Counted from the first letter of the stretch, positions 709 through 3,469 are shown. The stretch: 64,000 nucleotides of DNA from Escherichia phage phiAPCEc03 (NC_047754.1); one strand, 5' to 3'. The notes: generated by a model from the sequence alone, not told the origin. Program-made: numbers and translations.

Positions 709-786
709 GGTTCTCAAGCTCATATGGTATGAGCACCCGGCTCATAACCGGAAGGTACGTAGGTTCGAATCCTCGGGGAGCCACCA
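709..786 (+). tRNA. tRNA-Met/Ile2-type (anticodon CAU)
   Basis: Acceptor GGTTCTC/GGGAGCC pairs with two G-U; D-arm GCTC-ATATGGTAT-GAGC; anticodon loop CTCATAA; T-stem only 3 bp, so moderate confidence. Confidence 0.55.
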
Positions 787-1669: not shown

Positions 1670-1687
1670 ACTTATAAGGAAAACCTT

Positions 1688-1891
1688 ATGAAACATATTG
1701 TTAAGTATACTGAAAGTGAACGTGGGTGGGGCGGTGAAATCTGGTATCGTGGCTTTGATTCTGAAGAAGAAGCTAGAGCTGAGGTTCATGATACTAATAA
1801 AAATCTGCCAAAAGATCATGTACCAGACTACTATATTCAGGCTAAGTATGACGGTGTTAAAGATAAGGTTCCTGAAGGCTATAAGTTTTAA
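1688..1891 (+). CDS. hypothetical protein
   Basis: ORF starting MKHIVKY with AAGGAAA RBS; the upstream part of the listed ORF overlaps the tRNA. Confidence 0.5.
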   Translation: MKHIVKYTESERGWGGEIWYRGFDSEEEARAEVHDTNKNLPKDHVPDYYIQAKYDGVKDKVPEGYKF

Positions 1892-1899
1892 ATAATTCT

Positions 1900-2030
1900 T
1901 GGAATATGCCGGAATTGGTAGACGGGACTGCCGAATAGGTTTACTAGGAACATCCACTCCTAGAAATATACCTTAAAAGCGGTTGAGTTAAATGGTCTAA
2001 CTCATGAAGGTTCAAGTCCTTCTATTCCTT
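1900..2030 (+). ncRNA. tRNA-like structured element (oversized, about 130 nt)
   Basis: D-loop-like AATTGGTAGA near the 5-prime end, perfect T-arm GAAGG-TTCAAGT-CCTTC near the 3-prime end, acceptor-like pairing GGAATA/TATTCC, but 80 nt of extra sequence with two hairpins in between and no CCA. Confidence 0.3.
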
Positions 2031-2259
2031 GATACATCAATGGCTCAAAGTGTAACGGTGCTATTTGATGCTCTTGGAAAGACTTTCCCGACAGGCGTTC
2101 GGGGGTAAGCTTCTGAGGCTAGAATAGAAGAGTTTCTGAGAGCCGCCACAATTGAAAATTCGTACTCGTCTTGAGCTGCGTGCAATAGGGGATAACTTGA
2201 TTAGTATTCTAGAACATGCTAATTGAGGATGGTTTCGCTAACCCTGCGAGTTTTCAATT

Positions 2260-2691: not shown

Positions 2692-2767
2692 GCGGTTAAG
2701 CACACGGGTTGTGTCGCAGGCCTTCCAAGCCTCGCTGAGTAGGGTTCGATTCCCTCTAGCCGCTCCA
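2692..2767 (+). tRNA. tRNA-Gly (anticodon UCC), tentative
   Basis: Acceptor GCGGTTA/TAGCCGC with one G-U, anticodon loop CTTCCAA, T-loop GGGTTCGATTCCC, CCA encoded. Confidence 0.6.
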
Positions 2768-3035: not shown

Positions 3036-3192
3036 CAACCTAAAAGTAAAGATTGATAAACAAAAGAAACGTGTAGAAGTAGAGATTGGCGAAGAACGTG
3101 TTGCCTTTACTTTCGAGTTTCTTCAGCAGTTGGCTATGACAGTTATGACTGATAAGTCTCCTGTTATTGAAAAAGAAATCCCGTTGAAATAA
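3028..3192 (+). CDS. hypothetical small protein (54 aa)
   Basis: ATG overlaps the previous stop; ORF MADNLKVKIDKQ ends immediately before the next tRNA. Confidence 0.35.
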   Translation: MADNLKVKIDKQKKRVEVEIGEERVAFTFEFLQQLAMTVMTDKSPVIEKEIPLK

Positions 3193-3200
3193 CGGGTTCT

Positions 3201-3287
3201 GCTGGGTTGGCAGAATGGTTGAATGCACCTGATTTGTAATCAGGAGGAGTAATCCCGTTGCAGGTTCGAATCCTGTGCCCAGCACCA
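3201..3287 (+). tRNA. tRNA with anticodon UGU (Thr by anticodon) and an atypical long variable region
   Basis: Acceptor GCTGGGT/GCCCAGC, perfect anticodon arm CCTGA-TTTGTAA-TCAGG, T-arm GCAGG-TTCGAAT-CCTGT, CCA encoded; 15-nt variable region is unusual for Thr. Confidence 0.55.
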
Positions 3288-3301: not shown

Positions 3302-3469
3302 ATGTTTAAACTGTTAGTAGTTATCTGGTATAGTCAATCAAATAGAGCGAATACCTCCCACGTTATAGACTTTAATACTAAAAATGAAGCTGAAAAAGCA
3401 TATGCTAATTTAATAGAACGCAATAAAGAATCTCGTAGTATAGTTTATGAAGTGACTAAACTTTATTAA
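3302..3469 (+). CDS. hypothetical protein
   Basis: ORF MFKLLVVIWY with AAGGA RBS; upstream part of the listed ORF overlaps the tRNA. Confidence 0.45.
   Translation: MFKLLVVIWYSQSNRANTSHVIDFNTKNEAEKAYANLIERNKESRSIVYEVTKLY

What the first reader, a model, noticed from the sequence alone, without database searches (positions are those of the whole stretch)
3201..3287. tRNA with Thr anticodon UGU but a class II-like 15-nt variable region
Acceptor, anticodon and T-arm stems are well formed and the anticodon loop TTTGTAA reads UGU, yet the variable region (AGGAGTAATCCCGTT) is far longer than in canonical tRNA-Thr and can form a short stem-loop. This could be a phage-specific tRNA, a suppressor-like variant, or a mis-parse.
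Basis: seen in the sequence. Interest (0 to 1): 0.4.

Follow-up and report, generated by a model that had tools for sequence, protein, structure and literature searches.

The report
Threonine tRNA with an extra arm
This T5-like phage carries a working threonine tRNA built on the long-arm tRNA body plan that textbooks reserve for serine, leucine and tyrosine, and the same design proves widespread in phages and present in some bacteria, for a tRNA that two bacterial anti-phage nucleases are known to attack.

Summary
Window 3201-3287(+) is a high-scoring tRNA (ARAGORN Thr/UGU; Rfam 58.9 bits) with a 15-nt variable region: A, a 3-bp stem GGA/UCC, loop GUAA, tail CGUU. Its core is class II-type (3-bp D-stem, G13.A22, A15:U48). 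It is not a mis-parse and not a natural suppressor.

It carries the full bacterial Thr identity set and lacks key Ser and Tyr determinants. A GenBank record with the identical 87-nt gene says it reads ACA and becomes an effective amber suppressor when given a CUA anticodon.

It is one of two alleles at this locus in T5-like phages. T5 itself has a 75-nt class I tRNA-Thr(UGU), found in 295 records. The long-arm allele is in 98.

It belongs to a large family: more than 100 distinct long-arm tRNA-Thr(UGU) genes in diverse viral contigs, plus chromosomal copies in Eremiobacterota and Acetobacteraceae. The extra stem covaries strongly. I found no description of this in the searchable literature.

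Host tRNA-Thr(UGU) is the prime target of the PARIS AriB and P2-OLD nucleases. The T5 allele is mutated at their cleavage site and the window allele is not. The altered body may therefore be an alternative escape route, but this is inferred and untested.

The parts
3201..3287 (+). tRNA-Thr(UGU) gene, 87 nt, CCA encoded; the class II-type ('long-arm') allele
   Evidence: ARAGORN. Rfam RF00005 58.9 bits. 100% identical to tRNAT of AJ604531. Present in 98 phage records.
3201..3207 (+). Acceptor stem 5' strand (G1 C2 U3 G4 G5 G6 U7), pairing with 3277-3283. Carries the Thr identity pairs G1-C72, C2-G71, G4-C69 and G5-C68.
   Evidence: Sequence. Identity set from PMC9976931 Table 1. G1-C72 and C2-G71 are invariant in 36/36 aligned family members and present in 88/89.
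3210..3226 (+). D-arm of class II (Ser/Tyr) type: 3 bp (G10-C25, C11-G24, A12-U23), G13.A22 mismatch, loop AAUGGUUGA with A15
   Evidence: Sequence. 3 bp plus a non-Watson-Crick 13:22 pair in 76/89 family members. The D-arm motif otherwise hits mainly tRNA-Ser (92 of 123).
3228..3244 (+). Anticodon arm CCUGA-UUUGUAA-UCAGG. It retains C28-U-G30, C40-A-G42 and U36-A-A-U-C-A41 exactly as in E. coli tRNA-Thr(UGU), which are the P2-OLD and AriB cleavage motifs.
   Evidence: Sequence. Host thrU verified. Motifs from PMC12445682 and PMC12409363.
3235..3237 (+). Anticodon TGT (UGU), reading ACA and probably further ACN codons if U34 is modified
   Evidence: ARAGORN position 35. Depositor's note 'codon recognized: ACA'.
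3245..3259 (+). Variable arm, 15 nt: A (3245), stem GGA (3246-3248), loop GUAA (3249-3252), stem UCC (3253-3255), tail CGUU (3256-3259). The final U is position 48, the Levitt partner of A15.
   Evidence: Covariation. The 15:48 pair switches between A:U (8) and G:C (6) in alignment A2, and is G:C 66 / A:U 14 of 89 overall.
3260..3276 (+). T-arm GCAGG-UUCGAAU-CCUGU. The first pair is G.U, replaced by A-U or G-C in close relatives.
3284..3287 (+). Discriminator A73 and encoded CCA end
3302..3469 (+). 55-aa ORF of unknown function (phrog_15108) that is inherited together with the long-arm allele and is absent from T5 proper
   Evidence: Alignment of window, T5 and phage 5 loci. PHROG match E = 2.7e-40. 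Annotated as ORF trn 2.19.-1 in AJ604531.
3177..3196 (+). Conserved upstream flank with hairpin CCCGTT-GAAAT-AACGGG (3180-3196). It holds the first copy of the 10-mer AATCCCGTTG (3177-3186), which recurs in the variable arm (3251-3260). It marks the left boundary of the allele swap.

Best explanation
It is a functional elongator tRNA-Thr(UGU) whose body is class II-type: a 3-bp D-stem, a non-Watson-Crick 13:22 pair, a Ser/Tyr-type D-loop, and a short variable arm with tRNA-Tyr-like dimensions.

Inferred from the identity nucleotides: host ThrRS charges it through the acceptor stem (G1-C72, C2-G71, G4-C69, G5-C68) and the anticodon (G35, U36). It then supplies decoding of ACA, and probably ACU and ACG, for an AT-rich phage.

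Shown by sequence comparison: it is one of two interchangeable alleles at this locus in T5-like phages. The other is the class I tRNA-Thr(UGU) of T5.

From the literature: E. coli has a single tRNA-Thr(UGU), and it is the prime target of two Toprim nucleases (PARIS AriB, P2-OLD) that cut the anticodon stem at 40|41. Phage tRNA-Thr(UGU) genes act as cleavage-resistant replacements.

Shown: the T5 allele is mutated at those sites, while the window allele keeps them identical to the host.

Inferred and untested: in the window allele, resistance, if any, comes from the reshaped core and the arm that emerges three nucleotides from the cut site. That would let the phage keep a host-identical anticodon stem-loop.
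For: - Genuine tRNA.
- Complete bacterial Thr identity set (PMC9976931 Table 1), seen directly in the sequence. G1-C72 and C2-G71 are invariant across the family.
- The identical 87-nt gene in AJ604531 is annotated by its depositors as reading ACA and as giving an effective amber suppressor after anticodon replacement. So it is expressed, processed, charged and used on E. coli ribosomes.
- It is the only Thr tRNA in the tRNA regions of relatives that carry this allele.
- Same slot as the T5 tRNA-Thr(UGU). The two alleles are found in 295 and 98 records.
- In 72 viral loci with a long-arm Thr(UGU), only 4 also hold a normal-length one, and all other Thr isoacceptors there are 72-76 nt.
- Chromosomal copies lie beside a Tyr-Gly-Thr(GGU) tRNA cluster and near nusG-rplA in Eremiobacterota.
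- ACA plus ACU make up 73% of Thr codons in the window's ORFs.
- Nuclease context.
- Site comparison of the host, T5 and window alleles.
Against: - No aminoacylation or cleavage data exist for this allele.
- The PARIS rescue experiments used the T5 class I allele, not this one.
- The amber-suppressor note implies that a derivative lacking the Thr anticodon is still charged efficiently. So the body carries some second, anticodon-independent or CUA-compatible identity, and exclusive Thr charging of the wild type is not proven.
- The arm also exists in bacteria, where an anti-phage-nuclease rationale is not obvious, so it may be neutral.
- An intact cleavage motif could simply mean the tRNA is sensitive to those nucleases.
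- Whether Eremiobacterota genomes also hold a class I Thr(UGU) was not checked.
Confidence: 0.75

Rival explanations
1. The arm and class II core are a neutral legacy. The gene descends from a class II tRNA (a Ser- or Tyr-type scaffold; Ser UGA to Thr UGU is a one-base anticodon change) whose acceptor stem was remoulded to Thr identity and whose arm shrank to 3 bp. It works as an ordinary Thr tRNA, and the arm does nothing in particular.
For: - Ser-type D-arm: 92 of 123 hits to its motif are tRNA-Ser.
- The arm layout (1 nt + 3 bp + loop + 3-4 nt) matches E. coli tRNA-Tyr as I recall that sequence; it was not verified with the tools.
- The arm's sequence and loop are free to vary; only a third to a half of loops are GNRA.
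- The architecture is present in cellular lineages.
Against: - The arm's size is tightly held: 3 bp in 64/89 and 1 nt on the 5' side in 77/89.
- The architecture is restricted to the UGU isoacceptor within Thr, and that is exactly the isoacceptor hit by two nucleases.
- Similar mini-arms recur in phage Asn(GUU) and Lys(UUU), the other reported AriB targets, and also in Cys and Trp.
Confidence: 0.35
2. It is a mischarging, recoding tRNA. A synthetase specific for class II tRNAs (LeuRS, TyrRS or SerRS) charges it, so ACA is partly read as Leu, Tyr or Ser, as with the nematode nev-tRNAs.
For: - Class II-type body with A73, A15:U48 and G18G19, which are Leu-type elements.
- The CUA derivative is an effective suppressor, whereas the class I T5 allele is not. 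That requires charging independent of the Thr anticodon.
Against: - The full Thr determinant set is strictly conserved.
- G73 and G2-C71 (Ser) are absent. U35 and G34 (Tyr) are absent in the wild type. The D-loop layout and position 20a do not match Leu.
- It is usually the phage's only Thr(UGU) and sits in core chromosomal context in Eremiobacterota. Systematic mistranslation of ACA is hard to reconcile with that.
Confidence: 0.07
3. The arm is a recognition handle for a partner other than a synthetase or a nuclease, such as a processing or modification enzyme or a phage-encoded factor (the co-inherited 55-aa ORF is a candidate).
For: - GNRA tetraloops are frequent.
- The allele travels together with a small conserved ORF of unknown function.
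Against: - The loop sequence is not conserved across the family.
- The same architecture occurs in unrelated phages and bacteria. I did not examine those loci for this ORF.
- There is no evidence of any interaction.
Confidence: 0.08
4. It is a non-functional pseudo-tRNA or an annotation artefact.
For: The length is unusual for the isotype. Several GenBank records leave it unannotated.
Against: High covariance-model score, perfect helices, encoded CCA, compensatory changes in every helix, conservation at 94% identity or more in 98 records, and the depositor-reported suppressor activity.
Confidence: 0.02

Closest known systems
Canonical bacterial and phage tRNA-Thr(UGU): E. coli thrU and the T5 tRNAT class I allele
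   Same: Anticodon UGU, the G1-C72/C2-G71/G4-C69/G5-C68 determinants and A73. Compared with T5, the same genomic slot. Compared with thrU, an identical anticodon-stem core (C28UG30/C40AG42) and identical positions 36-42.
   Different: - 87 nt instead of 75-76.
- 15-nt variable arm instead of a 4-5-nt loop.
- 3-bp D-stem with G13.A22 instead of 4 bp.
- Ser/Tyr-type D-loop.
- Opposite behaviour from the T5 allele when given a CUA anticodon.
Bacterial class II tRNAs (tRNA-Tyr, tRNA-Ser, tRNA-Leu)
   Same: Class II core (3-bp D-stem, non-Watson-Crick 13:22, R15:Y48). D-arm almost identical to phage tRNA-Ser D-arms. Arm dimensions like tRNA-Tyr. A73 and G1-C72 as in tRNA-Tyr.
   Different: The anticodon and acceptor determinants are those of Thr. 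The arm is too short for Ser identity, which also needs the absent G73 and G2-C71. It lacks G34/U35 (Tyr). It lacks the Leu-type D-loop layout and A20a.
Nematode nev-tRNAs and other non-canonical V-arm-containing tRNAs (Hamashima et al., PMC3333845)
   Same: A long variable arm combined with an anticodon of a class I amino acid.
   Different: nev-tRNAs keep Leu identity and are mischarged with Leu, are weakly expressed and are eukaryotic. Here the cognate (Thr) identity set is complete and conserved, and the gene is usually the only Thr(UGU) in its genome region.
allo-tRNAs and (8/4) tRNAs of bacteria and phages (Mukai et al., PMC5389517)
   Same: Irregular bacterial and phage tRNAs with long V-arms and unexpected anticodons.
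   Different: allo-tRNAs have 8/4 or 9/3 acceptor/T-stem geometry and Ser identity (G73/U73, long arm). This tRNA is a normal 7/5 with A73 and a 3-bp arm.
Phage 'rescue' tRNAs that replace host tRNAs cut by defence nucleases (T5 tRNA-Lys/Thr/Asn against PARIS AriB; phage tRNA-Thr6 and tRNA-Thr21 against P2-OLD)
   Same: The same anticodon as the targeted host tRNA. The same locus as the T5 tRNA-Thr that contributes to PARIS escape.
   Different: All characterised rescue tRNAs are class I and escape through anticodon-stem substitutions or a shortened stem. This one has an unmutated site and a different body, and its resistance has not been tested.

Membership tests
tRNA (Rfam RF00005) | Covariance-model score above the gathering threshold with a complete cloverleaf | tested here: met
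   58.9 bits against 29, model positions 1-71 of 71. ARAGORN agrees.
Bacterial tRNA-Thr (ThrRS substrate) | Acceptor-stem determinants G1-C72, C2-G71, G4-C69, G5-C68 | tested here: met
   All four pairs are present. Identity set from PMC9976931 Table 1.
Bacterial tRNA-Thr (ThrRS substrate) | Anticodon determinants G35 and U36 | tested here: met
   Anticodon UGU at 3235-3237.
Bacterial tRNA-Thr (ThrRS substrate) | Aminoacylation with threonine by ThrRS | not testable with these tools
   Only a depositor's note, 'codon recognized: ACA'. No charging data found.
Bacterial tRNA-Thr (ThrRS substrate) | Class I architecture (4-5-nt variable loop, 4-bp D-stem), as in all described tRNA-Thr | tested here: not met
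   15-nt variable arm and a 3-bp D-stem with G13.A22.
Class II tRNA architecture | Variable region longer than 10 nt that forms a stem-loop | tested here: met
   15 nt, 3 bp plus a tetraloop. 100% paired with compensatory changes at all three pairs. Selection control.
Class II tRNA architecture | 3-bp D-stem with a non-Watson-Crick 13:22 pair, and an R15:Y48 Levitt pair | tested here: met
   G13.A22 and A15:U48 in the window. 76/89 and 80/89 in the family.
tRNA-Ser identity (E. coli SerRS) | G73, G2-C71, C11-G24 and a large variable arm | tested here: not met
   A73 and C2-G71 in place of G73 and G2-C71, and the arm is only 3 bp. C11-G24 is present.
tRNA-Leu identity (E. coli LeuRS) | A73, A15:U48, G18G19 in the Leu-type D-loop position, A20a | tested here: inconclusive
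   A73, A15:U48 and G18G19 are present. The D-loop layout is Ser/Tyr-type and position 20a reads as U. Charging is not testable.
tRNA-Tyr identity (E. coli TyrRS) | A73 with G34 and U35 | tested here: not met
   A73 is present but the anticodon is U34 G35. An engineered CUA derivative would gain U35, which may explain the suppressor note (inference).
allo-tRNA | 8/4 or 9/3 acceptor/T-stem configuration | tested here: not met
   7-bp acceptor stem and 5-bp T-stem.
nev-tRNA-like mischarging V-arm tRNAs | Body carries the identity of a class II amino acid, and the tRNA is mischarged | not testable with these tools
   Sequence argues against this because the Thr set is complete. The amber-suppressor note leaves a latent second identity open.
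Phage rescue tRNAs against anticodon-stem nucleases | Same anticodon as the targeted host tRNA | tested here: met
   UGU. Host thrU is the target of AriB and P2-OLD.
Phage rescue tRNAs against anticodon-stem nucleases | Substitutions at or near the cleavage site, or a shortened anticodon stem | tested here: not met
   C28UG30, C40AG42 and U36AAUCA41 are identical to the host, and the 27:43 pair is strengthened to C-G. The T5 allele does have such substitutions.
Phage rescue tRNAs against anticodon-stem nucleases | Resistance to cleavage and rescue of growth | not testable with these tools
   The published tests used the class I T5 allele or other class I phage tRNAs.

The most novel reading that the evidence does not exclude
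Switching a tRNA to the class II body plan is an anti-defence strategy. The short arm emerging next to position 43, together with the remodelled D-loop and core, would stop Toprim anticodon-stem nucleases (PARIS AriB, P2-OLD and relatives) from docking. The phage could then keep an anticodon stem-loop identical to the host's, and so keep host modification and decoding properties, while still escaping cleavage. This would explain three things: why the arm is confined to the UGU isoacceptor of Thr, why it recurs in phage tRNA-Asn(GUU) and tRNA-Lys(UUU), and why T5-like phages carry either a site-mutated class I allele or a site-intact long-arm allele. A secondary possibility is that the body also confers a latent second aminoacylation identity, as the suppressor note hints.
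Probability: 0.3. Interest if true: 0.8.

Novelty: new variant of a known kind. Interest (0 to 1): 0.6.

Why it matters

This gene is the cultured, experimentally tractable representative of a large family of class II-type tRNA-Thr(UGU). T5-like coliphages and Salmonella phages carry it, so it can be studied with E. coli enzymes. The family is common in uncultivated phages and is chromosomal in Eremiobacterota. Related mini-arms occur on Asn, Cys, Trp and Lys tRNAs.

Three questions become directly testable:
- How do ThrRS, EF-Tu and modification enzymes tolerate a class switch?
- Is tRNA body architecture a second route of escape from tRNA-cleaving immune nucleases, given a natural two-allele comparison at one locus?
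- Do such scaffolds carry dual identities that could be used for orthogonal or suppressor tRNA design?

Tried and rejected
- I first took the PARIS rescue experiments (T5 tRNA-Lys, Thr and Asn) as direct functional evidence for this gene. Reading AY543070 showed that T5 carries a different, 75-nt class I allele, and a 78-nt Asn. Those data are context only.
- I first described the Eremiobacterota copies as lying inside the thrU-tyrU-glyT-thrT operon. Strand information shows they are adjacent to, but divergently oriented from, the Tyr-Gly-Thr(GGU) cluster.
- I first took the GNRA tetraloop as a defining feature. That was imposed by my search pattern. An unconstrained scan gives 11 strict GNRA loops of 31.
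- BLAST of the tRNA against 5,426 E. coli genomes found no match. This is uninformative for so short and divergent a query.
- The segment-wise nearest-isotype analysis, used in place of isotype covariance models, was not decisive. The acceptor stem's neighbours are mixed, and the D-arm result (39/40 Ser) is biased because part of the data set was selected by that D-arm motif.
- The sub-threshold Rfam hit to sRNA sX4 (26 bits against 70) only reflects the tRNA-Ser-like portion of that model.
- Supplementary tables of the P2-OLD paper, which list its 245 phage tRNAs, are not held. I could not tell whether a long-arm allele was in that screen.
- BLAST of the second family subgroup against cultured phages gave only 5 weak hits.
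- Nine literature searches found no description of a class II-like tRNA-Thr in phages or bacteria. Older T5 papers from subscription or Russian-language journals are not in the library.

Full report
**1. The observation**

The window is a T5-like phage (Tequintavirus, Demerecviridae). A 701-bp query around the finding matches 431 phage records at 80-97% identity.

ARAGORN calls a tRNA-Thr (anticodon tgt) at exactly 3201-3287(+). Rfam's tRNA model scores it 58.9 bits against a gathering score of 29 and places 11 extra bases in the variable region. Neither tool offers a different anticodon or a standard-length parse.

Read directly, the gene is:
GCTGGGT TG GCAG AATGGTTGA ATGC A CCTGA TTTGTAA TCAGG A-GGA-GTAA-TCC-CGTT GCAGG TTCGAAT CCTGT GCCCAGC A CCA.

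The variable region is 15 nt: one unpaired base, a 3-bp stem, a GUAA loop and a four-base tail. The D-stem has only three Watson-Crick pairs followed by G13.A22. The D-loop (AAUGGUUGA) has the layout of tRNA-Ser and tRNA-Tyr. The last variable base (U) pairs in the Levitt sense with A15. So the whole core is class II-type, not just the loop.

The free-energy minimum also contains the variable hairpin. The cloverleaf with the hairpin evaluates to -28.4 kcal/mol, against -25.2 without it.

**2. Relatives and the two-allele locus**

The identical or near-identical 87-nt gene occurs in 98 phage records, all T5-like phages of Salmonella, Escherichia, Klebsiella, Shigella and Citrobacter. It is mostly annotated tRNA-Thr.

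T5 itself (AY543070) has a different gene in the same slot. This is a 75-nt class I tRNA-Thr(UGU), GCTCCTAAAGCATTGTTGGTGATGCAGTTGCCTTGTAAGCATCTGAACCGGGTTCGATTCCTAGTGGGAGCACCA. That allele occurs in 295 records.

An alignment of the window, T5 and phage 5 shows three things:
- The upstream flank is conserved up to the first base of the tRNA.
- Homology to T5 is lost through the tRNA and through a 55-aa ORF (window 3302-3469, phrog_15108, unknown function) that T5 lacks.
- Homology resumes after that ORF.

The locus is therefore dimorphic. The long-arm allele arrives as a cassette of tRNA plus small ORF.

In relatives that carry the long-arm allele, it is the only Thr tRNA in the tRNA region.

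**3. A large family**

*Shared body in unrelated phages.* The T4-like Aeromonas phages PX29 and Ah1 carry an 85-nt tRNA-Thr(UGU) with the same body. Erwinia T4-like phages carry an 87-nt tRNA-Trp(CCA) with nearly the same D-arm, variable arm (GGA-GAAA-UCC, or GGG-GAAA-CCC in a relative) and T-arm. Their acceptor stem, A9 and G73 are those of tRNA-Trp.

*Viral contigs.* A pattern scan of IMG/VR for UGU anticodon loops followed by a long spacer returned at least 120 loci (capped). ARAGORN found 71 distinct long-arm tRNA-Thr(UGU) sequences of 80-90 nt among them. A second scan with no constraint on the arm's sequence added 20 more.

*Cellular genomes.* The same pattern in one genome per GTDB species found 16 genuine genes among the 120 loci returned. 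About eleven are in Candidatus Eremiobacterota, three in Acetobacteraceae and one in Spirosoma. In Eremiobacterota the gene lies beside, and divergent from, a Tyr(GUA)-Gly(UCC)-Thr(GGU) tRNA cluster. In one 3.56-Mb chromosome it is about 5 kb from tRNA-Trp, nusG and rplA, which is core cellular context.

*Family features across 89 distinct sequences:*

| Feature | Count |
|---|---|
| G1-C72 and C2-G71 | 88/89 |
| Discriminator | U in 55, A in 32 |
| One unpaired base before the stem | 77/89 |
| 3-bp variable stem | 64/89 |
| 3-4-nt tail | 68/89 |
| D-stem of 3 bp with non-Watson-Crick 13:22 | 76/89 |
| 15:48 pair | G:C in 66, A:U in 14 |

*Covariation.* On two gapless alignments (14 and 22 sequences) the full structure is 98.5% and 98.7% paired. 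Shuffles give 67-69% and slid partners give 30-44%. The variable stem is 100% paired, and all three of its pairs show changes on both sides.

*Selection control.* Those subsets were chosen by my own hairpin parser, so I ran a control. A 3-bp stem closing a 4-nt loop occurs in 69 of 89 variable regions, against 12-16 expected (maximum 27 of 1000 shuffles). In the fixed register it occurs in 61, against 2-4 expected.

*Loop sequence.* GNRA loops are common but not defining: 11 strict cases of 31 in the unconstrained sample.

*Isoacceptor restriction.* In 72 viral loci holding a long-arm Thr(UGU), only four also hold a normal-length Thr(UGU). All AGU, CGU and GGU Thr tRNAs in those loci are 72-76 nt. 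So the architecture is specific to the UGU isoacceptor and usually replaces the standard gene.

**4. Which amino acid?**

The identity table of Giegé and Eriani (PMC9976931) gives these bacterial sets, compared here with the window tRNA:

| Synthetase | Bacterial identity set | Window tRNA |
|---|---|---|
| ThrRS | G1-C72, C2-G71, G4-C69, G5-C68, G35, U36 | All present |
| SerRS | G73, G2-C71, C11-G24, large variable arm | A73, C2-G71 and a 3-bp arm; only C11-G24 present |
| TyrRS | A73, G34, U35 | A73 only |
| LeuRS | A73, A15:U48, G18G19, A20a | A73, A15:U48 and G18G19 present; D-loop layout is Ser/Tyr-type and 20a is not A |

The long-arm Trp tRNA of the Erwinia phages likewise carries most of the Trp set (A1-U72, G2-C71, G3-C70, G4-C69, A9, G73, CCA), with A5-U68 in place of G5-C68. 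The long-arm Cys tRNAs L047 and L093 carry U73. This argues that these scaffolds are charged with the amino acid of their anticodon.

The strongest functional evidence is a depositor's note. GenBank record AJ604531 (Bacteriophage 5 tRNA gene region) contains a gene 100% identical to the window tRNA. It is annotated 'codon recognized: ACA; replacement of the anticodon with CUA sequence converts this tRNA into effective amber suppressor'. So the RNA is made, matured, aminoacylated and used by ribosomes in E. coli.

The class I allele in T5 carries the opposite note, 'does not convert'. The same contrast holds for Asn. The 83-nt long-arm Asn of phage 5 converts and the 78-nt Asn of T5 does not.

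ThrRS needs G35 and U36, so an efficient CUA derivative must be charged by another enzyme. My best guess is TyrRS, because the derivative gains U35 and already has A73, G1-C72 and a Tyr-sized arm. LeuRS is the next candidate. This is inference. It leaves a small possibility that the wild type is not charged exclusively with Thr.

**5. Why the UGU isoacceptor? The defence context**

Two recent papers show that E. coli tRNA-Thr(UGU), the cell's only ACA reader, is a prime target of Toprim nucleases.

[quoted passage not shown] A second protomer is modelled on D-loop U16-U17. Co-expression of the T5 Lys, Thr and Asn tRNAs rescues growth and infection (Belukhina et al., PMC12409363).
[quoted passage not shown] Phage tRNA-Thr(UGU) genes rescue growth by resisting cleavage. 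In the class I tRNA-Thr6 the resistance maps to G30C/C40G plus a shortened stem (PMC12445682).

None of these papers, nor the eLife paper on anticodon-loop escape, mentions a variable arm.

I verified the host thrU, lysT-type and asnT-type sequences against 5,426 E. coli genomes. The three-way comparison of the Thr alleles is:

| tRNA | Anticodon stem (27-31 / 39-43) | State of the nuclease motifs |
|---|---|---|
| Host thrU | ACUGA / UCAGU | Reference: C28-U-G30, C40-A-G42, U36-A-A-U-C-A41 |
| T5 class I allele | GUUGC / GCAUC | C28 to U, G42 to U (a mismatch), U39 to G; both motifs mutated and the stem weakened |
| Window allele | CCUGA / UCAGG | All three motifs retained; 27:43 strengthened to C-G |

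The long-arm Asn of T5_ev212 also keeps the host's U36-A-A-U-C-C41. So T5-like phages show two designs: a class I body with a mutated site, or a class II-type body with an intact site.

The inference is that the altered core and the arm, which begins three nucleotides after the scissile bond, substitute for site mutations. This is plausible but untested. The tRNA may equally be sensitive to these nucleases. The existence of the architecture in bacteria also shows it does not need a phage-defence rationale.

Codon usage gives an independent reason for the gene. ACA is 23.5% and ACU 49.5% of Thr codons in 39 long ORFs of this 38.7%-GC window.

**6. Comparison with known systems and novelty**

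The gene has been in GenBank as 'tRNA-Thr' for years and was even engineered, so its existence is not new.

What I could not find described is the following:
- It is a class II-type tRNA-Thr.
- It is an alternative allele to the T5 gene.
- It belongs to a widespread phage and bacterial family.

Nine full-text searches and 11 papers gave nothing. Reviews state that the V-arm is specific to Ser, Leu and bacterial Tyr, and that bacterial tRNA genes lack structural diversity (PMC4033280).

The nearest precedents differ in defining features:
- Nematode nev-tRNAs have a V-arm with a class I anticodon, but they carry Leu identity and are mischarged.
- allo-tRNAs have a long arm and odd anticodons, but 8/4 or 9/3 geometry and Ser identity.

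I therefore rate this a new variant of a known kind. One caveat: older T5 literature in journals outside the library may have noted the long extra arm.

**7. Verdict**

- Best explanation (confidence 0.75): a functional Thr-specific tRNA on a class II scaffold, serving ACA/ACN decoding and probably replacing host thrU.
- Hypothesis that the scaffold is a nuclease shield: about 0.3.
- Rival that the arm is a neutral legacy: about 0.35.
- Mischarging rival: about 0.07.
- Interest: 0.6.

Noticed in passing
L001 5277-5359 (T5_ev212); L362 2003-2085 (phage 5); L002 982-1063 (PX29); further examples L076, L086, L143: tRNA-Asn(GUU) of 82-87 nt with a similar mini variable arm. In T5_ev212 it is G-GUC-GAAA-GAC-AAC on an otherwise class I D-arm. 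T5 proper has a 78-nt Asn. The depositors note that the long-arm Asn becomes an amber suppressor with CUA and that the T5 one does not. It keeps the host's U36AAUCC41 site. Asn(GUU) is also an AriB target.
   Followed up: partly
L001 3396-3472 and 7565-7641; L362 120-196 and 5106-5182: tRNA-Leu(UAA) and tRNA-Leu(UAG) of only 77 nt with a 5-nt variable loop (GUUUU). They retain the Leu-type D-loop (AAUUGGUA/AAUUGGCA), U48 and A73, so they are class-I-shaped Leu tRNAs. T5 proper has an 85-nt class II Leu(UAG). Short Leu tRNAs made up 10 of 37 and 12 of 41 phage Leu tRNAs in my samples.
   Followed up: partly
L003 3992-4078 (Erwinia phage IT22); L076 (Erwinia phage pEp_SNUABM_01): 87-nt tRNA-Trp(CCA) sharing the D-arm, variable arm and T-arm of the window tRNA. 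Its identity elements are those of Trp (A1-U72, G2-C71, G3-C70, A9, G73). The arm shows a compensatory A:U to G:C change between the two phages.
   Followed up: partly
L047, L093, L086, L176, L178, L200, L204 (Cys); L145, L178, L189, L200, L293 (Lys UUU); L200 (Lys CUU); L170 (His); L145, L169 (Gly): Further phage tRNAs for class I amino acids that carry extra variable arms. Several of the Cys tRNAs have the Ser-type D-arm, and L047 and L093 have U73.
   Followed up: no
L046, L141, L143, L149, L188, L204, L215, L224: Nine distinct tRNA-Ile(UAU) genes of 91-97 nt with a 23-25-nt variable region that contains a recurring AGAU-containing motif (e.g. CUAGAU, CCAGAU). They are reminiscent of the nematode nev-tRNA-Ile(UAU).
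   Followed up: no
window 3177-3186 and 3251-3260; hairpin 3180-3196: The 10-mer AATCCCGTTG occurs only twice in the 64-kb window (0.06 expected). One copy is in the conserved hairpin just upstream of the tRNA, which is also present in T5. The other is in the variable arm. This could be microhomology at the edge of the allele cassette, or coincidence.
   Followed up: partly
window 3302-3469 (+): A 55-aa ORF (phrog_15108, unknown function) that accompanies the long-arm tRNA allele and is absent from T5 proper.
   Followed up: partly
window about 2692-2767 (+): A T5-type tRNA-Gly(UCC), identical to phage 5 (1 substitution versus T5_ev212). ARAGORN misses it, and so does Rfam at the gathering threshold, presumably because its D-arm is atypical (CACACGGGUUGUGUC). 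The depositors report it as an effective amber suppressor after anticodon replacement.
   Followed up: partly
window 709-783 (+): An Rfam tRNA hit (40.3 bits) that ARAGORN does not call. By synteny with T5 and phage 5 it is probably tRNA-Ile2(CAU), which sits next to tRNA-Ser(GCU).
   Followed up: no
window about 1670-2259 (+): By synteny with AJ604531 and AY543070, the interval between tRNA-Ser(UGA) and tRNA-His should hold a small ORF and the T5 'stable RNAs' RNA1 (tRNA-like), RNAI and RNAIII, whose functions are unknown. I did not examine it.
   Followed up: no
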